Assembly: GCA_039808585.1 (NCBI GenBank)
Contig: JBDHTJ010000002.1
Span: 1,440 to 65,439 of the forward strand
Length of the DNA stretch: 64,000 nt
Source of the DNA: Hyphomicrobiaceae bacterium
Lineage (GTDB): Bacteria; Pseudomonadota; Alphaproteobacteria; Rhizobiales; Hyphomicrobiaceae
Direction: 5' to 3'
The position numbers and the translations under genes were made by a program. Below are positions 56,533 to 64,000 of this stretch, in pieces. A model generated the notes under the pieces. It searched no databases and was not told the origin of the DNA. It saw nothing but the letters and a program-made list of their open reading frames with translations. Position 1 is the first letter of the stretch. The number at the start of each line of letters is the position of its first letter.

Positions 56533-58098
56533 TCAGACGGTGGCGACTGCGGCGGGAGCAGCAAGCTCCTTCTTGGCGATCTTGCCCGTCGTCGTCTTCG
56601 GGATGCTGTCGCGGATCTCCACGTGCTTCGGCACGAGATGGCTTTCGAGATGCTCCCGGCAATGCTTGCGGATCGCGGCCTCGTCGAGCGTGGCACCCTC
56701 GCGCGCCACGACGATCGCCTTCACCGCCATGCCGTCGATTGCGTCCTCGACCCCCACGACGGCGGCTTCCACCACCTCGGGAATGGCATAGAGGACGTGC
56801 TCGATCTCCTTCGGGCTCACCTTCTCGCCGCGGCACTTGAAGATCTCGTCCGTGCGGCCGACGAAATAGACAAAGCCCTCGCTATCCATCCAGAACTGGT
56901 CGCCGGAGTGCAGCACCATCTCGCCCTCGATCTCGCCGGGCTTCAGCCGCTTCGCGGTCTCTTCGGGCTTGCCCCAATAGCCGCGCATGACGTTGGCGCC
57001 ACGGATCACGAGTTCGCCGACCACGCCGGGCGCAACGCGCTTGCCCTTCTCATCGACTACATAGATTTCCGAGTTCGGCATGGCCTTGCCCACCGAGCCG
57101 ATCTTGTCGTTGAGGCGTTCGGGCTCGAGGTAGCACACGCGCGTGCACTCGGTGAGACCGTACATCGAGAAGATCAGCGTCTCCGGGAAGAGCTCCTGCA
57201 TGCGCTTGATGTGTGCAGGCGGAAGCGCTGCCGCGGTATTGCTCATGTAGCGCAGCGAAGGCAGATGCGCCCTGCTGAATTTCTCGAGTTGCAGCAGGCG
57301 CGCGAATACGGTCGGCACGCCGGGCAAGCCCGTCACCTTGTGCTCGATCATCTTCTTCAGCATTTCGAACGGGAATGCGAACGACTTCTCCAGAACGACG
57401 GTGAAGCCGATCCGAGCGCCCGTGATTACCTGGTACATGCCATAGTCGAACGACAACGGCAGCACCGTCATCACAACATCGTCGGGCGTGTTGCGCAGAT
57501 AGGTGGAGATGGCCCACGCCGTGTTGGTCATGTTGCGGTGGGTGAGCATGACACCCTTCGGGTTCCCCGTGGAACCCGAGGTGTAGATGATGGTGCAGAG
57601 GTCGATGTCGATCAGTCCCACGGGCGCAGGCGCACGACGTGGCCCGGACAGGATGTCTGCAAGGGTACGACCCGCGGGACCCGAGGTCGGCGCGCCGTGG
57701 GACCAGATATAGCCCGCGACGCTTGCCGCCGCATCGGCAACCTCGGCCACGACGGGGGCGAGGTTCGTCTGCGCCACGACCACCTTCACGCGGCAATCAT
57801 CGAGCAGATAAAGCAGTTTCTCGGCCTTCGTGGTCGCGTTGACATTCACGAAGACCGCGCCGGCCTTCAGCGTTGCGAAGACGGCCGTCACGAGTTCGAT
57901 CGAGTTATCGAGGAAAATGGCAACCCGATCGCCGCGCCCCACGCCCATATCCTGAAGGGTCGAGGCAAGCACGTCGCTGTCGCGATCGAGCGCACCGAAC
58001 GTGATCGACTTGTCACCGGCGATGATGGCGGTGTGCTCGGGGCGCCTGGCCGCCGTATGCACGAGGAAATCGTGAACGAAATTCGGACCGCCGCTCAT
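56533..58098 (-). CDS. AMP-dependent synthetase/ligase (adenylate-forming, acyl- or aminoacyl-carrier loading type)
   Basis: A3 IIYTSGSTGNPKGVMLTHRN, LSFDYGMYQ, A5 MYGLTE, A7-A8 SGDQFWMDSEGFVYFVGRTDE, A10 PKTTTGKI. Its start overlaps the ACP stop (ATGA). Confidence 0.88.
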   Translation of the reverse strand: MSGGPNFVHDFLVHTAARRPEHTAIIAGDKSITFGALDRDSDVLASTLQDMGVGRGDRVAIFLDNSIELVTAVFATLKAGAVFVNVNATTKAEKLLYLLDDCRVKVVVAQTNLAPVVAEVADAAASVAGYIWSHGAPTSGPAGRTLADILSGPRRAPAPVGLIDIDLCTIIYTSGSTGNPKGVMLTHRNMTNTAWAISTYLRNTPDDVVMTVLPLSFDYGMYQVITGARIGFTVVLEKSFAFPFEMLKKMIEHKVTGLPGVPTVFARLLQLEKFSRAHLPSLRYMSNTAAALPPAHIKRMQELFPETLIFSMYGLTECTRVCYLEPERLNDKIGSVGKAMPNSEIYVVDEKGKRVAPGVVGELVIRGANVMRGYWGKPEETAKRLKPGEIEGEMVLHSGDQFWMDSEGFVYFVGRTDEIFKCRGEKVSPKEIEHVLYAIPEVVEAAVVGVEDAIDGMAVKAIVVAREGATLDEAAIRKHCREHLESHLVPKHVEIRDSIPKTTTGKIAKKELAAPAAVATV

Positions 58099-58352
58099 GC
58101 CGCCTTCCCTGCAACCTTGCGCGAGACGAATGTCGCGATACGCTCGATGGAATCGAGGTTCTCAGGCACCAACTCTTCATCGGCGATGGAAATGCCGAAC
58201 TCACTCTCGAGATACATCACGAGGTCCATTGCGCCGGTAGAATCGATGATTCCGAGTTCCAGGAGAGAGTCCGCACGCGGTATCTCTGCCTTCTCGTCGA
58301 ACAAGAGATTCTTGGCGATGTAGGCTGTGATCTGCTGTTCCAATTGCTGCAT
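58095..58352 (-). CDS. acyl/peptidyl carrier protein
   Basis: ATG at 58352. 85 aa. ...SLLELGIIDSTGAMDLVMYLESEFGI carries the phosphopantetheine-Ser context (DS-x-G). Confidence 0.8.
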   Translation of the reverse strand: MQQLEQQITAYIAKNLLFDEKAEIPRADSLLELGIIDSTGAMDLVMYLESEFGISIADEELVPENLDSIERIATFVSRKVAGKAA

Positions 58353-58477
58353 CCGAAGCCCCCATAAACACAACGTCTTCTTACTCCGGAAGCCGGCATT
58401 TGTATGCAGTTTCAGTCAGGATATTGCGGCTTTAGGTAAAGCGAGAGAGTGAACAATTTATTCGCGTTTCCATTCCA

Positions 58478-59350
58478 TTAATCTTTGCCCTGCGAAATGC
58501 GCACGCTGGCGCTCATTCCAGGTTTCAGCATCATGTCCTGGTTATCGACCTCGAGGACGACCTTGTAGTGGACCTCGCCGTTGATGGTCTCGGGCTCGTT
58601 GCGCACCTGAACAACCTTCGCGTTGAACGCTTTCCTCGGAAAAGCCTTGGCCGTGCATGCGCCATTGTCTCCCGGCTTGATGCCTGCGACTTCCGCTTCC
58701 TTAACGTTCGCGACGAGCTTCAGCTTCTTCAGGTCGCTCGCGACGACGAACAGCGTTGGCGTCTGGAGCGTTGCCGCGATCGTCTCCCCTGGTTCAACGC
58801 GCCGGGCGAGAACCGTCCCGTCCACCGGCATGACGATATTCGTGTAATTGAGATTGAGCTCGGCTCCATCCAACTCCGCCTTGCGCAAGTCGATGTTCGC
58901 CTTGTCCACCACGATCTGCGCCTTGCCCTGCTCGAATGTCGAGGTGATACCCTCGAAAACGCTTCGCGAGACGACCCCCTTTTCGAAGAGGGCCTTGTTC
59001 CTCTCGTAGGCGGCCTGCGCCTGCACCAGCGCTGCTTCGTGCAGCACGAGTTGCGCCCGGGCACTCTCGAGCGCAGCTCTTGCCTGTTCGACCGTGCGCT
59101 GGAACCGCCGCGGATCAATGCGCGCGCACACCTGGCCCTTTTTCACGCTGGCGTTGTAATCGCAATCGACGCTTTCGACGATGCCCGAGACGTAGCTTCC
59201 CACCACCACCGTCTGAAGCGGCTCCAGCACGCCATTGGCGGTGACTTGAGCATGTACACCCGGTGCCATTACGAGCGGGCAGAGAAGCGCTCCAAGGGCT
59301 GCCATCGCGGCGCGCGATCCGCACAGGCGCAGAGAGTTGGTCATCGGCAT
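58478..59350 (-). CDS. HlyD-family periplasmic adaptor (membrane fusion protein)
   Basis: ATG at 59350. Signal/anchor region AAMAALGALLCPLVMAPGVHA, a lipoyl-like segment VVGSYVSGIVESVDCDYNASVKKGQVCARID, a coiled-coil hairpin, then YTNIVMPVDGTVLARRVEPGE and a beta-barrel end. No cognate pump gene is adjacent. Confidence 0.75.
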   Translation of the reverse strand: MPMTNSLRLCGSRAAMAALGALLCPLVMAPGVHAQVTANGVLEPLQTVVVGSYVSGIVESVDCDYNASVKKGQVCARIDPRRFQRTVEQARAALESARAQLVLHEAALVQAQAAYERNKALFEKGVVSRSVFEGITSTFEQGKAQIVVDKANIDLRKAELDGAELNLNYTNIVMPVDGTVLARRVEPGETIAATLQTPTLFVVASDLKKLKLVANVKEAEVAGIKPGDNGACTAKAFPRKAFNAKVVQVRNEPETINGEVHYKVVLEVDNQDMMLKPGMSASVRISQGKD

Positions 59351-59457
59351 ATCGATATGCTCCCGGCCGCGACGCGGCCATTTTGAAACGACGGCCTTCA
59401 AAAAACACGCAACATGCGTGCGAAATCGAGACACTCGGGCCGCGCTCATTAAAATCG

Positions 59458-60210
59458 CTAGGTCGTGCTCGTGCGCGGAAGCATATCGAGCGCGAAGAGG
59501 TAGAATATGCGCGGACATTCGATCAGGTAGCGCCTTGCAAGGCGGCGCGGATCCGAAAGCAGGCGATAGGCCCATTCGAGGCTGGAACGCTGCATCCATT
59601 CAGGCGCCCGCCGCTGCTTCCCCGTCAGGAAGTCGATCGAGGCCCCAATGCAAAGCCCGACCCCTTTGGCCTCAGGCCGTTCACCAATGCGTCGCGCCAG
59701 GATCTCCTGCTGGGGCATACCGACAGCAAGGAATACCAGGTCCGAGGCTGCGTCCACTACGAAATCGATGCATTTCGCCACCTCGGCATCCGAGCGGACG
59801 AAGTTCATCGGGGGCGCATAATGGGCGATCCTGAGTTCAGGATAGCGCCGCGATAGCTTTACGACCTCGTCCGTCGACGAGCCGATCACGGTCACCGTGA
59901 GGCGCAGGCGGGAGGCCTCGGGCATCAGGGCGGCCGTGAGATCGCTACCCGCAATCACAGGCAGATCGAGCCCGCGCAAACGGGCCAGGCGGCTGAGGAT
60001 GCGACTGTCGCAGAAGACCCCCCAGGCACTGTCGTAGGCCCGGCGCAGATCCTGCCCATCCTCGTGCAGCCTCACCATGTGATGCACGTTCGGCGTAACG
60101 ATGAAGCGAAACCCGCTCTTTGTGGAAGCGAGAATCTCTTCGACAGCCTCAGCAAGGACGAGCCGATCGAAGTCCTGGCTCAGAAAGCGAACTTTGTGGC
60201 GGTTACGCAT
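59458..60210 (-). CDS. WecB/TagA/CpsF family glycosyltransferase (GT26)
   Basis: FIVTPNVHHMV..., VIGSSTDEV..., LVFLAVGMPQQEILA..., GASIDFLTGKQRRAPEWMQRSSLEWAYRLLSDPRRL: the GT26 signature. Confidence 0.85.
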   Translation of the reverse strand: MRNRHKVRFLSQDFDRLVLAEAVEEILASTKSGFRFIVTPNVHHMVRLHEDGQDLRRAYDSAWGVFCDSRILSRLARLRGLDLPVIAGSDLTAALMPEASRLRLTVTVIGSSTDEVVKLSRRYPELRIAHYAPPMNFVRSDAEVAKCIDFVVDAASDLVFLAVGMPQQEILARRIGERPEAKGVGLCIGASIDFLTGKQRRAPEWMQRSSLEWAYRLLSDPRRLARRYLIECPRIFYLFALDMLPRTSTT

Positions 60211-60442
60211 GAACGACTACCTACCCGTACGAAGCCGACGTTTGTGGGCAGGCATTGCAAGCCGTATGCCGACGTCGGCCTCATAGGCCGGACGGGATGC
60301 CAGCCAAACAGCACGATAAATAAAATCTTAACACGGAATTTGTCCTGCACGCACAGTACCCTGCGCAAATTGGTTAATCCGTGTCTGGATTGCCTCACTG
60401 CGTGAATTGATTGGGTAACGGACGATTGCCATGTAGCCAGCA

Positions 60443-60475
60443 TAAAAAAGAGGCGCCGCGGCAACCGCGGCGCCT
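60443..60475 (-). terminator. strong rho-independent terminator (minus strand) after the thioesterase genes
   Basis: On the minus strand: AGGCGCCGCGG-TTG-CCGCGGCGCCT followed by CTTTTTTAT. An 11-bp perfect GC stem, 30 nt after the PaaI-like stop. Confidence 0.65.
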
Positions 60476-60504
60476 TCGTGGCGCATAGTCATGTTTCTTG
60501 CCGT

Positions 60505-60915
60505 TCAACCAGCCACCGGCAGCACCATCTGCGTCTGGGTCACGACGGCGCACAGCTTGCCCGCCTCGGACCGGATCGACGTCTGCCAGACCTGCGTAGA
60601 CTTGCCCTTGTGCAGGGGAACAGCCTCTGCGGTGACGACCGTACCGACCGGGGCTGCCCCCATGAAGTTGGTCTTGGACTCGATTGTCGTCGTGCGGGTG
60701 TTGGGCGGCAGGTTCACCACAGTGCCAACGGCCCCAATGGTGTCGGCAAACGCCATGAAGGCCCCCCCGTGCAACACGCCTCCGGCCGTACACAAGTCGG
60801 GACGCACCTTCATCGTGGCGATGATACGGTCCGGAACGGCCTGCTTGATCTCGATGCCCAGCAATCCCGGGAGAAGCGGAGCAAAAAGGGCTTGGATCTG
60901 ATCGATTGTGGGCAT
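60505..60915 (-). CDS. PaaI-family hotdog-fold thioesterase
   Basis: 136 aa. ...LLGIEIKQAVPDRIIATMKVRPDLCTAGGVLHGGAFMAFADTIGAV...TTIESKTNFM... is the PaaI/YigI pattern. Confidence 0.8.
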   Translation of the reverse strand: MPTIDQIQALFAPLLPGLLGIEIKQAVPDRIIATMKVRPDLCTAGGVLHGGAFMAFADTIGAVGTVVNLPPNTRTTTIESKTNFMGAAPVGTVVTAEAVPLHKGKSTQVWQTSIRSEAGKLCAVVTQTQMVLPVAG

Positions 60916-60963: not shown

Positions 60964-61383
60964 TCAACCCTGCAAAGCGGTGCGAAGGGCCGCCGACAGG
61001 CGCATGGGACGCCCCGACGCCGAAATCAGCACCACCATCACCTCTGCGGTAAAGATATCGCTTCCCGCGCGCGAGATCCGCTGGTCAAGGACAAGGGTTG
61101 CAGCCGACGTTTCCTTCACCCGAGTCGTCACCTCGAGCACCTCGTCGATCCGCGCCGGGCGCAGGAACTCGAGCCCCATCCGCCGCACTACGAACGCGGC
61201 TGGTTCACGTCCCTCCGCGCCTTCGAGAAGCGCACGATGGTCGTTGCCGACAAGGCGAAGGAAATCGGACCGGCCCCGCTCGCACCAGCGAACATAGGAA
61301 CCGTGATAAACGAGGCCCGAGAACTCTGGCTTGCCAACATCGCAACACAGCGGCTTGATTCCATTGGGGCGCTGGAGGGCTAT
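60964..61383 (-). CDS. YbgC/4HBT-type hotdog thioesterase paralog lacking a canonical start codon (possible pseudogene)
   Basis: The track ORF starts at GTG 61188. The same frame stays open upstream and encodes ...KPLCCDVGKPEFSGLVYHGSYVRWCERGRSDFLRLVGNDHRALLEG..., paralogous to the upstream gene (RVYFEDTDAGQIVYHANFLRFMERGRTNYLRLLG). There is no in-frame ATG, GTG or TTG between the upstream stop (61406) and 61188. The 5' end given here (ATA at 61383) is a guess. Confidence 0.45.
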   Translation of the reverse strand: MALQRPNGIKPLCCDVGKPEFSGLVYHGSYVRWCERGRSDFLRLVGNDHRALLEGAEGREPAAFVVRRMGLEFLRPARIDEVLEVTTRVKETSAATLVLDQRISRAGSDIFTAEVMVVLISASGRPMRLSAALRTALQG

Positions 61384-61405
61384 AGCGTGAACAAGCGTAG
61401 ATTCT

Positions 61406-61846
61406 CTACGCTCCTTCCATAGCGAGCCGTAGCGCCTTCGGGATCCGTTGCGCCCTTCCGCCTGAGATAAATGCTACCCGCACGCGGGCCGCGACCAAAA
61501 GATCGTCTCCGCGTCGACATTCCTGCAGCAGGGTAATCGATGCGCCCTTGACCTCTGCGGGGATTGTGATGACATCAAGCAAGTCGTCCAAGGCCGCTGG
61601 TTTTAGGAAATCGATTGTCATTGAACGGACAACGAAGGCGAAGCTTGGCGCATCGTCGTGCGCTTCTTTGAGTAGCTCCCGCTGATTGGTCCCGAGCAGA
61701 CGCAGGTAATTCGTTCTTCCCCGTTCCATGAAGCGCAAGAAATTGGCGTGATAAACAATCTGGCCGGCGTCCGTATCTTCGAAATAGACGCGGACCTGCA
61801 TATGATGGCGACCGTCGCGAATTTCTCCGTCAAGAGATGTTGTCAC
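61406..61846 (-). CDS. YbgC/4HBT-type acyl-CoA thioesterase (hotdog fold)
   Basis: VRVYFEDTDAGQIVYHANFLRFMERGRTNYLRLLG...FVVRSMTIDFLKPAALDDLLDV. The likely start is GTG at 61846 or ATG at 61801. The ORF track start at 61981 overlaps the pAgo 3' end and crosses an AT-rich gap. Confidence 0.8.
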   Translation of the reverse strand: MTTSLDGEIRDGRHHMQVRVYFEDTDAGQIVYHANFLRFMERGRTNYLRLLGTNQRELLKEAHDDAPSFAFVVRSMTIDFLKPAALDDLLDVITIPAEVKGASITLLQECRRGDDLLVAARVRVAFISGGRAQRIPKALRLAMEGA

Positions 61847-61922
61847 AGAAATATCCACTTGTTGTATATCGGGAACTAATTGACTCGGATCATTATTCTG
61901 GCTCGCGGTTGGCCAGTCGACG

Positions 61923-63341
61923 TCACATGAAGAAACGAAATTGATAGGGAGCGGAGCCCAATCCGTCCATTCGTTTGACAACGCGCGCGAGCGTTTTTGC
62001 GTATGCCATGGTCACCGGCAGCATGTCGTACAGTGCGTCGTTGTTCCAATCCATCTTCGCGAGCGCGAGAGCTGACCGGGCGGTTTCGTTCCACGAGCCG
62101 TGCCCTGCATGACGGACCAGTCGAATCGGACGAGGCGTGCTGCGGCCGCCTTGGTAATACGAGCGCTCCGCGACGCCTTTTACATCGCCATGCATCCACA
62201 GCAGACACTCGCGGTCTCCGAGCGGGATCAGGGTACCACGATCGACCGGATAACCCGTTGGCTTCCCTTTGCCGCTTTGGCGGTCGCGATCGATGCGAAC
62301 ACCTCTCCAGCCGACGTCCTCCACGACCTGCACGAGATCGACCGCTTCGCACAGATGCAGCGCTTCCATGCAGCCGTCGATCTCGTCCTTCTTGAATTCT
62401 GTCGTCTTGTGTACCGTCACTCTCCGGGGAGAGCGACCCGAGTGCCGACGTCGGTAGAGATCTAGCGATCGGCCCATCACGCGGAACATCTCCGTCCGGG
62501 ACATGAACGGATTGTCCCGCTGGACATCGATTTCATGGGCATCGTAGGCGACGAACTCAAGACCCGCCCCTTCCGCATCGAACACTTGGCTACAGCAGGT
62601 GACAAAGCGTGGCCGGTCTGACTCGGTCGGACGCAGCGCATAAGAGAGACCGATGTAGGCGGCCTCAGGATCCGAATCTGCGAGTTTCCAGGGAATGCCG
62701 CCAGCCTTCGCGTAAATCGCTAGGCCGATCCGCCACATGACGCTCGCACGGTCCGGATAGGCGAGCGCGCGGTCTTCACGGACGAGTTGGATTGGAATGC
62801 GTCGCGCTGCGGTAGCGGCCTTCAGGTGGTCATGGAGATCGAAGTCGTCGCCGTCTGCTCCCGTGAACCCGGCTGCCCAGCTTTGCGGGATGTAGATGAA
62901 GACAATGTCGAACGCGTCGCGGCGAGCCTCCAACGATCGGATCGCGCGAAGCAAGCGGTCCGCCAGCACGACATGGGGGGTGACTGAGTCCTTCATTTCG
63001 CCATCGAGCCGGTCGTCCAGCTCTATATGGCAATCCTTGACCGCGCCCCGCATGTCGAGATTGAACGCTTTGCGGAAACCGGGCCAGGGAGGCAGGTAGT
63101 CCTTGCGCTCCGTCGGCTTGTACTGGAACGCCAGTTCCTTCATGAAGCCGTAGAGTCGGTTTCCCTGCCGTGCCGGTGCGATCGTCGCGATCCGGATGGG
63201 ATCCGGAACAAGACCGGATGAATAGGGCCCGAACCGCAGCAGTCCACGCAAAGGATGGAGATCCACGTCCGACGCGCGGTCTGGATGAAACGCGAGCTTG
63301 GCTTCGGGAAAAAACAAATGAGGCGATATCTCGCTGCTCAT
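61923..63341 (-). CDS. short prokaryotic Argonaute (MID-PIWI, predicted catalytically inactive)
   Basis: ATG at 63341 (MSSEISPHLFFPE), 472 aa. MID-like FDLHDHLKAATAARRIPIQLV...YAKAGGIPWKL (H-K-Q-K pocket pattern). PIWI-like AAYIGLSYAL, RVTVHKTTEFKKDEIDG, MDWNNDALYDMLPVTMAYAKTLARVV, and C-terminal YQFRFFM. The slicer D/E/D/H positions are substituted. The start overlaps the upstream ORF stop (ATGA). Confidence 0.85.
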   Translation of the reverse strand: MSSEISPHLFFPEAKLAFHPDRASDVDLHPLRGLLRFGPYSSGLVPDPIRIATIAPARQGNRLYGFMKELAFQYKPTERKDYLPPWPGFRKAFNLDMRGAVKDCHIELDDRLDGEMKDSVTPHVVLADRLLRAIRSLEARRDAFDIVFIYIPQSWAAGFTGADGDDFDLHDHLKAATAARRIPIQLVREDRALAYPDRASVMWRIGLAIYAKAGGIPWKLADSDPEAAYIGLSYALRPTESDRPRFVTCCSQVFDAEGAGLEFVAYDAHEIDVQRDNPFMSRTEMFRVMGRSLDLYRRRHSGRSPRRVTVHKTTEFKKDEIDGCMEALHLCEAVDLVQVVEDVGWRGVRIDRDRQSGKGKPTGYPVDRGTLIPLGDRECLLWMHGDVKGVAERSYYQGGRSTPRPIRLVRHAGHGSWNETARSALALAKMDWNNDALYDMLPVTMAYAKTLARVVKRMDGLGSAPYQFRFFM

Positions 63342-64000
63342 GCTCGGGCTCTCCCCGAGAAAGCTGTGACATCGCCCAGCCTGAAGGCCGCATTCACACC
63401 AGTGCTGATTCCAAGCGCCGGAAGGTCGCGCTGCGGGGACGCGAACAGCATCGACCAAAACTCGAGCAAGGCATTGAGCGCAGGATTGTAGCGTCTCACA
63501 ATCCGTTCGCGCGCGAAATCGGTGGCGGCGGCCCTGTTCTCCCTTGTAAGTCCTTCGAATACGGTGCGCGGCTCGAGCAGAAGCCAAAGCCGCTCATCCA
63601 CCCAATCCAGCCTGATCCCCACGCCTTCTTTCCATTTTAGTTCGGGTTGCTTCGGCACCAATCCACCTAGACTTCCGGTCAGCTTCCTCAGCGGCGCCCA
63701 TTTTTCGTCATCAACGGAGGTCGGCGTCAACAGGTCGGCGCCTCTGCGACGGGCAGCGATCATCCGATGTTCGCGGGTGAGAGCTCGGGTCAGTGCTTCG
63801 CGGAGAAGGCCCCGTTCGTGACTATCGTAACGCAGCCGCCGGGTTTCAATTGAATGCAGATCGAAGCTTTCGATCTCATATGCGGAAAGGACTGCTCTGA
63901 TATCGGCGTCAGCACCGAAGGCCAGCACGCCTGCTTTCGAACGGGTGCCAATGACCGGCAGGCCCGACGCTTCGATTGCCGACTTGATTTCCGCCACGCC
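63338..64000 (-). CDS. C-terminal part of pAgo partner protein (APAZ-like domain); the N-terminal effector lies outside the window
   Basis: The minus frame is open from the window edge to TGA at 63338 (at least 220 codons). ...KWKEGVGIRLDWVDERLWLLLEPRTVFEG...FARERIVRRYNPALNALLEFW... has the look of APAZ C-terminal regions of SIR2/TIR/Mrr-APAZ proteins. Stop and start overlap with pAgo. This is a partial gene. Confidence 0.6.
   Translation of the reverse strand, partial: GVAEIKSAIEASGLPVIGTRSKAGVLAFGADADIRAVLSAYEIESFDLHSIETRRLRYDSHERGLLREALTRALTREHRMIAARRRGADLLTPTSVDDEKWAPLRKLTGSLGGLVPKQPELKWKEGVGIRLDWVDERLWLLLEPRTVFEGLTRENRAAATDFARERIVRRYNPALNALLEFWSMLFASPQRDLPALGISTGVNAAFRLGDVTAFSGRARA

What the first reader, a model, noticed from the sequence alone, without database searches (positions are those of the whole stretch)
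61923..64000. Short, slicer-dead prokaryotic Argonaute coupled to an APAZ-like partner whose effector domain is cut off by the window edge
Seen in the sequence:
- ORF 61923..63341 (472 aa from the ATG at 63341) has no N/PAZ half.
- Its MID-like half has an H-K-Q-K 5'-end pocket pattern (FDLHDHLK...IPIQLV...KAGGIPWKL).
- Its PIWI-like half ends in MDWNNDALYDMLPVTMAYAKTLARVV...YQFRFFM.
- Where active Argonautes carry the DEDX tetrad, it reads GLSY, VHKTTEF and YAKT, so it should not cleave.
- Its ATG overlaps the stop of the upstream ORF (ATGA at 63338-63341).
- That upstream ORF stays open to position 64000 and ends with an APAZ-looking segment (GIRLDWVDERLWLLLEPRTVF...RRYNPALNALLEFW).

Established knowledge: short pAgo plus effector-APAZ heterodimers (SIR2, TIR, Mrr/DREN-type nucleases) are abortive-infection defence systems triggered by guide-directed target binding.

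Inference: this is such a system. Which effector it uses cannot be told from this window, because the effector lies 5' of the visible part. It may or may not belong to a described subtype.
Basis: partly seen in the sequence, partly recalled or inferred. Interest (0 to 1): 0.8.

Follow-up and report, generated by a model that had tools for sequence, protein, structure and literature searches.

The report
SIR2-linked short Argonaute defence operon
This is an ordinary member of a known bacterial defence system (SPARSA), in which a cleavage-dead short Argonaute is paired with a SIR2-APAZ enzyme that destroys NAD+; the effector cut off by the window edge is SIR2, and the operon sits at the end of a conjugative element.

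Summary
Window 61923-63341 (-) encodes a 472-aa MID-PIWI protein that matches the PADLOC short-pAgo class I model end to end (E 4e-199). It also matches the solved Geobacter sulfurreducens SPARSA Argonaute end to end (PDB 8in8_C, E 3.5e-113, 41% identity).

The upstream ORF overlaps it by ATGA and runs off the window. Its 220 visible residues are the APAZ end of a SIR2-APAZ protein (PADLOC E 6e-53).

The same DNA, 100% identical from 64000 down to 61322, occurs in at least 14 other genomes or MAGs. There the partner is a 580-aa protein with an N-terminal SIR2 domain (PADLOC E 8e-187; GsSir2 E 1.6e-72).

- The SIR2 residues N147, H193 and D237 are invariant in the relatives.
- The MID pocket residues H170, K174, Q185 and K212 are invariant in the relatives.
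- The three Asp positions of the DEDX tetrad read S233, T313 and K449.

So this is a clade S1B SPARSA system. By homology it is an RNA-guided, DNA-triggered NADase that aborts infection. It is a new member of a known kind.

In the identical copies the operon is the last cargo of a conjugative element, next to trb-type type IV secretion genes. The element's right end lies at about 61322, inside a ybgC-like thioesterase gene.

The parts
63338..64000 (-). 3' part of the SIR2-APAZ gene. It encodes the C-terminal 220 of 580 residues (APAZ domain), with the stop TGA at 63340-63338. The gene is cut by the window edge.
   Evidence: The frame is open to 64000. PADLOC Aga_SIR2-PNTD1-PNTD2 matches at E 6e-53, profile positions 312-523 of 524. 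GsSir2 8in8_B residues 377-561 match at E 1.9e-13. The full 580-aa protein was read in L001:8262-10004, which is identical to the window over the shared part.
63338..63341 (-). ATGA start/stop overlap that couples the two genes. A GGAG Shine-Dalgarno-like motif lies at 63354-63351.
   Evidence: Read directly from the sequence. In 81 of 86 related loci a SIR2-APAZ homologue is found, and where both genes are complete it abuts the pAgo gene.
61923..63341 (-). Short pAgo, 472 aa, MID plus catalytically dead PIWI. The 5'-phosphate pocket is H170, K174, Q185 and K212. The DEDX-equivalent residues are S233, T313 and K449. The region equivalent to the GsAgo sensor loop is about residues 266-279. The C-terminus is YQFRFFM.
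   Evidence: PADLOC pAgo_I PDLC02377 matches at E 4e-199 over residues 2-472. PDB 8in8_C matches at E 3.5e-113 over residues 3-472, 41% identity. The pocket residues are invariant in 51 distinct relatives. The tetrad was mapped by hhalign to TtAgo.
61406..61801 (-). ybgC-like acyl-CoA thioesterase gene (131 aa) carried by the mobile element. It is the last gene before the element's right end.
   Evidence: Pfam 4HBT matches at E 1.5e-11. It lies inside the stretch that is 100% identical among the ICE-bearing loci. The only PLSDB match is annotated 'ybgC: tol-pal system-associated acyl-CoA thioesterase'.
61302..61322 (.). Right junction of the mobile element with the host chromosome. Identity to other genomes ends here.
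   Evidence: There are no mismatches to L001-L006 from 64000 down to 61322, and mismatches begin at 61321. The alignment of the junction is, and the gene content beyond it differs in each locus.
60964..61321 (-). 5'-truncated host ybgC-like gene, the presumed integration target. It has no in-frame start codon before 61188 and lacks the N-terminal part.
   Evidence: Pfam 4HBT matches at E 1.8e-14. It is 42% identical to the element-borne copy from that copy's residue 15 onward.

Best explanation
The two genes form a clade S1B SPARSA system, that is, a short prokaryotic Argonaute with a SIR2-APAZ partner.

By homology with the G. sulfurreducens system, the mechanism would be as follows:
1. The 580-aa SIR2-APAZ protein and the 472-aa MID-PIWI Argonaute form a heterodimer.
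2. The Argonaute's MID pocket holds the 5'-phosphate of a small guide RNA taken from invader transcripts.
3. Pairing of the guide with complementary single-stranded invader DNA (plasmid or phage) is sensed by a PIWI loop.
4. The complexes oligomerise and the SIR2 catalytic His is brought into place.
5. NAD+ is hydrolysed, and the infected cell dies or arrests.

Shown here: domain composition, gene coupling, and conservation of the catalytic and guide-binding residues. Also shown: absence of the slicer tetrad, and location as the terminal cargo of a widely shared mobile element that carries conjugation genes. Inferred: complex formation, guide type, trigger, oligomerisation and NAD+ depletion.
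For: - pAgo: PADLOC pAgo_I E 4e-199. GsAgo (PDB 8in8_C) E 3.5e-113, aligned end to end.
- Partner fragment in the window: SIR2-APAZ model E 6e-53. GsSir2 APAZ region E 1.9e-13.
- Full partner from DNA identical to the window: PADLOC E 8e-187, Pfam SIR2_2 E 3.8e-10, GsSir2 E 1.6e-72 over residues 12-560.
- GsSir2 N142, H186 and D230 map to N147, H193 and D237, which are invariant in 47 relatives. Those residues were shown to be essential in PMC10781750, PMC11452484 and bioRxiv 10.1101/2021.12.14.472599.
- GsAgo H166, K170 and Q181 map to H170, K174 and Q185. These, and K212, are invariant in 51 relatives.
- Tetrad positions: S233, T313 and K449.
- Gene pairing is kept across relatives down to 38% identity.
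Against: - No experiment bears on this orthologue.
- The SIR2 half is not in the window. It is read from other contigs that are identical over the 2.7 kb shared with the window, so intactness in this genome is inferred.
- Identity to the only characterised structure is modest: 41% for pAgo and 32% for SIR2-APAZ.
- GsSir2 residues reported as needed for tetramer assembly (Y168, Q192, Q297) read S175, R199 and L304 here.
- GsAgo base-contact residues R190 and N195 read Y195 and S200.
- The oligomeric state and the guide 5'-end preference could therefore differ.
Confidence: 0.88

Rival explanations
1. The operon works chiefly for the conjugative element that carries it. It would exclude or penalise competing plasmids and elements that enter the same cell, or stabilise the element, rather than act as host phage defence. 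The biochemistry would be the same, but the beneficiary and the main targets would differ.
For: - The operon is terminal cargo of an element with trb-type type IV secretion genes.
- The same sequence is 100% identical in at least 14 genomes or MAGs with different flanks.
- Another candidate defence pair (PADLOC PDC-M30/M41) and a PIN_12 protein lie just upstream.
- GsSir2/Ago is reported to block CloDF13/ColE1-type plasmids.
Against: - Nothing here distinguishes the beneficiary.
- Defence genes as ICE cargo are common and usually read as host-beneficial cargo.
- Some copies of the element have lost the operon by internal deletion (L068, L082, L084), so it is dispensable for the element.
Confidence: 0.25
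2. The system is a decaying or silent remnant that no longer functions.
For: - Deleted versions exist in Bradyrhizobium sp. RDM12, where SIR2 residues 1-66 are joined to pAgo residues from about 277 to 472.
- No convincing promoter was found upstream of the SIR2-APAZ gene by a sigma-70 consensus scan.
Against: - Both ORFs are intact, with all catalytic and guide-binding residues kept.
- The protein is identical on hundreds of contigs (896 contigs).
- The consensus promoter scan is weak evidence in an alphaproteobacterium.
Confidence: 0.05
3. The partner uses an effector other than SIR2 (TIR, Mrr/DUF4365, DREN or HNH nuclease), which would make this a SPARTA-, SPARDA- or SPARHA-type system.
For: From the window alone the effector cannot be seen, since the window ends inside the APAZ part.
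Against: - The visible APAZ fragment already matches only SIR2-APAZ models.
- The identical full-length gene has a SIR2 domain and no other effector hit.
- Solved pAgos of other short systems score 68-102 bits, against 382 bits for GsAgo.
Confidence: 0.02

Closest known systems
GsSir2/Ago (SPARSA) of Geobacter sulfurreducens, clade S1B; PDB 8in8, 8jkz, 8jl0, 8k87, 8k88, 8y7z, 8y80, 8y82
   Same: - Two-gene operon with SIR2-APAZ upstream of a short pAgo.
- Nearly the same lengths: 580 and 472 aa here, against 587 and 473 aa.
- Both proteins align end to end.
- The SIR2 residues N, H and D, the cofactor-loop alanines A32 and A43, the MID H-K-Q-K pocket and the C-terminal RFFM are conserved.
- The GLSY and HKTT motifs at the dead slicer site are identical.
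   Different: - Identity is only 41% for pAgo and 32% for SIR2-APAZ.
- Base-contact residues R190 and N195 read Y195 and S200.
- Sir2-Sir2 interface residues Y168, Q192 and Q297 read S175, R199 and L304.
- Target 3'-end stacking residue Y530 reads R529.
- This copy is carried on a conjugative element.
Clade S1A SPARSA (single-chain SIR2-APAZ-pAgo fusions, e.g. JomSPARSA, PgSir2-Ago)
   Same: The domains are the same and in the same order. The fused PADLOC models match both proteins (PDLC02420: 343 bits for the pAgo and 265 bits for the partner).
   Different: Here there are two separate genes with a 4-nt overlap. The scores to the split-gene models are about twice as high (660 and 620 bits).
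SPARTA (TIR-APAZ + short pAgo, clade S2A) and SPARDA/SPARHA (nuclease-APAZ + short pAgo, clade S2B)
   Same: The logic is the same: a dead short pAgo senses invader DNA through a guide and switches on an APAZ-fused effector, which causes abortive infection.
   Different: - The effector domain here is SIR2, not TIR or a nuclease.
- The pAgos of those systems are only distantly similar (E 1e-18 to 1e-20).
Other SIR2 NADase defence proteins (Thoeris ThsA, DSR2)
   Same: They share a SIR2 fold with an Asn/His catalytic pair that is used to deplete NAD+ (comparison with ThsA in PMC10781750).
   Different: The sensor module differs: here it is an Argonaute with a nucleic-acid guide, not a signalling nucleotide or a phage protein.

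Membership tests
SPARSA, clade S1B (short pAgo + SIR2-APAZ operon) | The Argonaute has only MID and PIWI domains, with no N or PAZ domain. | tested here: met
   The 472-aa protein aligns over residues 3-472 with the 473-aa GsAgo. It also matches the full length of the 457-position PADLOC pAgo_I model.
SPARSA, clade S1B (short pAgo + SIR2-APAZ operon) | The PIWI domain lacks the DEDX catalytic tetrad. | tested here: met
   hhalign of profile A2 against TtAgo gives D478->S233, D546->T313 and D660->K449. T313 reads T, S or N in all 51 relatives, never Asp. The Glu position could not be aligned reliably.
SPARSA, clade S1B (short pAgo + SIR2-APAZ operon) | The MID 5'-phosphate binding residues are conserved. 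| tested here: met
   H170, K174, Q185 and K212 are invariant in 51 relatives. The first three map to GsAgo H166, K170 and Q181, which contact the guide 5'-phosphate.
SPARSA, clade S1B (short pAgo + SIR2-APAZ operon) | A separate, adjacent, co-oriented gene encodes an APAZ-domain protein. | tested here: met
   There is an ATGA overlap. The 220 visible residues match the C-terminal part of the SIR2-APAZ models and GsSir2 residues 377-561. The pairing is kept in 81 of 86 related loci.
SPARSA, clade S1B (short pAgo + SIR2-APAZ operon) | The N-terminal domain of the APAZ protein is SIR2, with the catalytic Asn and His and the NAD-binding Asp. | tested here: met
   This part is not in the window. 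It was read from L001:8262-10004, which is 100% identical to the window over 61322-64000. Pfam SIR2_2 E 3.8e-10 and PADLOC E 8e-187. N147, H193 and D237 are invariant in 47 relatives.
SPARSA, clade S1B (short pAgo + SIR2-APAZ operon) | The pAgo places phylogenetically in clade S1B. | tested here: inconclusive
   No tree with reference sequences was built. By similarity ranking it sits with the split SIR2-associated group: 660 bits to pAgo_I PDLC02377 against 343 bits to the fused model, and 382 bits to GsAgo against 102 bits or less to the other solved short pAgos.
SPARSA, clade S1B (short pAgo + SIR2-APAZ operon) | The two proteins form a heterodimer, and NADase activity is triggered by guide RNA and target DNA with oligomerisation. 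| not testable with these tools
   This needs biochemistry. Several GsSir2 interface residues are not conserved, so the oligomer contacts cannot be assumed to be the same.
SPARTA / SPARDA / SPARHA | A TIR, DUF4365/Mrr/DREN or HNH effector is fused to APAZ. | tested here: not met
   Only SIR2 models match the full-length partner.
Integrative conjugative element (context) | Conjugation genes, plus a sharp boundary with identical sequence in different chromosomal backgrounds. | tested here: met
   VirB8-like, CagX-like and TrbI genes plus DUF2274 lie 5-10 kb upstream in L001-L006. Identity of 100% ends at 61322, and the flanks beyond it differ.
Integrative conjugative element (context) | Integrase, relaxase, the second end of the element, and att repeats. 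| not tested
   These lie outside the window and outside the 10-kb flanks that were fetched.

The most novel reading that the evidence does not exclude
This alphaproteobacterial, ICE-borne SPARSA subgroup may differ functionally from the Geobacter paradigm in two ways.
- It may select guides with a different 5' end and assemble through a different SIR2 interface: Y195/S200 replace the R190/N195 base contacts, and S175/R199/L304 replace Y168/Q192/Q297.
- It may serve the conjugative element in competition with other incoming plasmids or elements rather than serve the host against phages.
Probability: 0.2. Interest if true: 0.4.

Novelty: new member of a known kind. Interest (0 to 1): 0.2.

Why it matters
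It matters little for discovery. The system type, its structure and its mechanism are published, and the family is already in defence-finder model sets.

The result is useful in three ways:
- It shows that a window-edge truncation can be resolved from identical public contigs.
- It records that one exact SPARSA operon is spreading among Nitrobacteraceae-like alphaproteobacteria as the end cargo of a conjugative element inserted in ybgC.

That last point gives a natural setting in which to ask whether short-pAgo systems act in conflicts between mobile elements.

Tried and rejected
- NCBIfam gave no hit for either protein.
- Pfam alone would have been ambiguous: Piwi scores 19 bits, below the 28.9-bit cut-off, and there is no hit for the APAZ fragment. 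The call therefore rests on PADLOC and PDB homology.
- The longer 554-aa mechanical ORF for the pAgo (TTG at 63587) was rejected, because homology and gene calls start at the ATG at 63341.
- The 554-aa ATG start used by some gene calls for SIR2-APAZ was rejected in favour of the 580-aa GTG start. Residues 12-26 align with GsSir2 residues 6-20.
- My first motif-based guess that the second catalytic Asp corresponds to K312 was corrected to T313 by hhalign.
- Promoter and terminator scans were uninformative.
- No tRNA or Rfam element is in the window, so the element is not inserted at a tRNA gene.
- The host genome could not be identified. The flank 50000-61321 matches none of the fetched loci. 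One host protein is not on record, and another occurs only on a 920-bp contig.
- The plasmid collection holds no close copy of the operon; only the ybgC-like gene matched.
- The literature searches found no study of a Bradyrhizobium or Afipia SPARSA, or of ICE-borne short pAgos.
- No structure prediction was run, because sequence homology to solved structures was already decisive.
Full report
**Observation**

The minus strand of window 61923-63341 carries a 472-codon ORF starting at the ATG at 63341. Its ATG overlaps the TGA of an upstream ORF, giving ATGA at 63341-63338, and a GGAG lies 9 nt upstream. The upstream ORF stays open to the window edge at 64000, so 220 residues are visible. A longer mechanical ORF (TTG at 63587) exists. 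It is not the gene, because homology begins at residue 3 of the 472-aa product and gene calls on six independent contigs give exactly this protein.

**What the two proteins are**

Pfam alone is weak: Piwi scores 19 bits, below the cut-off, and nothing matches the partner fragment. NCBIfam gives nothing. The defence-specific and structural comparisons are unambiguous.
- The 472-aa protein matches the PADLOC short-pAgo class I model PDLC02377 over its whole length (E 4e-199).
- It also matches the Argonaute of the G. sulfurreducens SPARSA complex over residues 3-472 (PDB 8in8_C, 473 aa, E 3.5e-113, 41% identity).
- Solved short pAgos from other systems score far lower (E 1e-18 to 1e-28).
- The 220 visible residues of the partner match the C-terminal part of the PADLOC SIR2-APAZ models (E 6e-53, profile positions 312-523 of 524).
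- They also match residues 377-561 of GsSir2 (E 1.9e-13), inside the APAZ domain defined as residues 331-587 in PMC10781750.

**Recovering the part cut off by the window**

The exact pAgo protein is on record on very many contigs (896 contigs). Six fetched loci have no mismatch to the window from 64000 down to 61322. Eight more loci from a scan of species-representative genomes also carry the identical protein and, where enough flank was held, the same neighbouring genes.

In these loci the upstream gene is complete, at L001:8262-10004, 580 aa from a GTG.
- It matches the PADLOC SIR2-APAZ model end to end (E 8e-187).
- It passes the Pfam SIR2_2 threshold.
- It aligns with GsSir2 over residues 12-560 (E 1.6e-72, 32% identity).
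- No TIR, Mrr/DUF4365 or HNH model matches.
- The 554-aa ATG start used in some gene calls removes residues that align with the N-terminus of GsSir2, so the GTG start is preferred.

**Functional residues**

Published mutagenesis and structures of GsSir2/Ago identify N142 and H186 as catalytic and D230 as needed for NAD+ binding. They also show H166, K170 and Q181 of the Argonaute contacting the guide 5'-phosphate.
- The SIR2 residues map to N147, H193 and D237 of the partner, which are invariant in 47 distinct relatives.
- The Argonaute residues map to H170, K174 and Q185. With K212 they are invariant in 51 distinct relatives.
- The cofactor-loop alanines (A26, A37) are kept as A32 and A43.

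For the slicer site, I aligned a 22-sequence profile of the family (A2) to Thermus thermophilus Argonaute. The typed TtAgo sequence was first verified as identical to PDB 3dlb_A. hhalign gave probability 84% and E 7.5e-6, and places D478, D546 and D660 on S233, T313 and K449. Position 313 is T, S or N in every relative. The glutamate finger aligns to D272 in the loop that corresponds to the GsAgo sensor loop, but that part of the alignment is gapped and not reliable.

**Gene coupling**

A SIR2-APAZ homologue was found in 81 of 86 related loci. Where both genes are complete it ends directly at the start of the pAgo gene, down to 38% pAgo identity. The pAgo is consistently more conserved than its partner, and within the partner the SIR2 half is more conserved than the APAZ half.

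**Mechanism**

[quoted passage not shown] The published model for GsSir2/Ago comes from PMC11452484, PMC10781750 and bioRxiv 10.1101/2021.12.14.472599. It runs as follows:
1. The two proteins form a heterodimer.
2. It loads 5'-phosphorylated small RNAs.
3. It binds complementary single-stranded invader DNA.
4. A PIWI sensor loop detects the duplex.
5. Tetramerisation positions the catalytic His.
6. NAD+ is hydrolysed to ADPR and nicotinamide, and the cell dies or becomes dormant.

Here I have shown only the sequence-level prerequisites; the steps themselves are inferred.

Several details may differ from the Geobacter system.
- The residues that read the first guide bases in GsAgo (R190, N195) are Y195 and S200 here, and Y/F and S/A in the relatives.
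- Three GsSir2 residues at Sir2-Sir2 tetramer interfaces, where mutations disrupted assembly or activity (Y168, Q192, Q297), are S175, R199 and L304 here.

**Surroundings**

The operon is cargo of a mobile element.
- In the identical loci, trb-type type IV secretion genes (VirB8-like, CagX-like, TrbI) and DUF2274 lie 5-10 kb upstream.
- They are followed by a lower-GC cargo stretch.
- That stretch holds a DUF5131 protein and a 421-aa protein matching the PADLOC candidate system PDC-M30/M41, and a PIN_12 protein.
- Downstream of the pAgo the element carries an intact ybgC-like thioesterase gene at window 61406-61801.
- Identity among all copies then stops at 61322/61321.

Beyond this point each genome has a homologous but diverged ybgC-like reading frame. 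In the window this remnant lacks the first dozen or so codons and has no in-frame start codon. After it, the gene content is unrelated between genomes.

This pattern fits the right end of an integrative conjugative element inserted in the 5' part of ybgC. The element may supply a replacement copy of that gene, but this is inference. The left end, integrase and relaxase were not seen. The identical element occurs in assemblies labelled Afipia, Bradyrhizobium denitrificans, Rhodoblastus, Nitrobacter, Xanthobacteraceae and Hyphomicrobiaceae. Some of those labels are on MAGs and may be binning errors. In Bradyrhizobium sp. RDM12 the same context carries an internally deleted operon.

**Comparison and novelty**

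The closest known system is GsSir2/Ago. The domain order, lengths, catalytic and guide-binding residues and gene arrangement are the same. Sequence identity is moderate, and the genomic carrier is a conjugative element. The literature searches found no study of this orthologue or of ICE-borne short pAgos.

It is a new member of a known kind. The finding is real and correctly interpreted, but it would not surprise a specialist. Its interest is low, with a modest upside if the subgroup proves to differ in guide choice or assembly, or to act in competition between mobile elements.

Noticed in passing
window 61302-61322 (junction); 60964-61321 (-); 61406-61801 (-): Window 61322-64000 is 100% identical to at least 14 loci from different genomes, and the identity ends sharply inside a ybgC-like thioesterase gene. 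The host copy is 5'-truncated with no start codon. The element carries its own intact ybgC-like gene just inside its end. This looks like the right end of an integrative conjugative element that targets ybgC and may bring a replacement copy.
   Followed up: partly
L001:3370-7430 (outside the window, upstream of the SIR2-APAZ gene): The element's cargo next to SPARSA includes a DUF5131 protein (PADLOC PDC-M41B/M30B, E 6e-100) and a 421-aa partner (PDC-M30A, E 1e-20). An unassigned 260-aa protein and a PIN_12 protein follow. Together with SPARSA they form a small defence island in a lower-GC stretch (55-58% GC, against 65% in the secretion genes).
   Followed up: partly
L068:9811-10588, L082:9811-10587, L084:2037-2828 (Bradyrhizobium sp. 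RDM12): In the same element context, the first 58-66 residues of SIR2-APAZ lie directly next to the C-terminal part of the pAgo (from about residue 277 in L068). This is an internal deletion that has destroyed the operon, present in several copies within one genome.
   Followed up: partly
L001:8262-8340 (start of the SIR2-APAZ gene): Public gene calls disagree on the start (554 aa from ATG, or 580 aa from GTG). The extra 26 residues include residues 12-26, which align with GsSir2 residues 6-20, so the shorter call is probably truncated.
   Followed up: yes
window 61926-63341 (-), protein-level look-up: The exact 472-aa protein is on record on 896 contigs in many public assemblies and sequencing runs, under several genus labels. 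One is a Fimbriimonadaceae MAG on a 5.7-kb contig, which is probably mis-binned. The element or its hosts are very common in public data. Names given by the sources include 'hypothetical protein' and 'Nuclease PIN', so the protein is often not annotated as an Argonaute.
   Followed up: no
window 56533-60915 (-): The host flank next to the element holds a PaaI-type thioesterase, a WecG/TagA glycosyltransferase, an HlyD-family protein, an acyl carrier protein and an AMP-binding enzyme. It matches none of the fetched loci, and the host genome does not seem to be in the protein-position index.
   Followed up: partly
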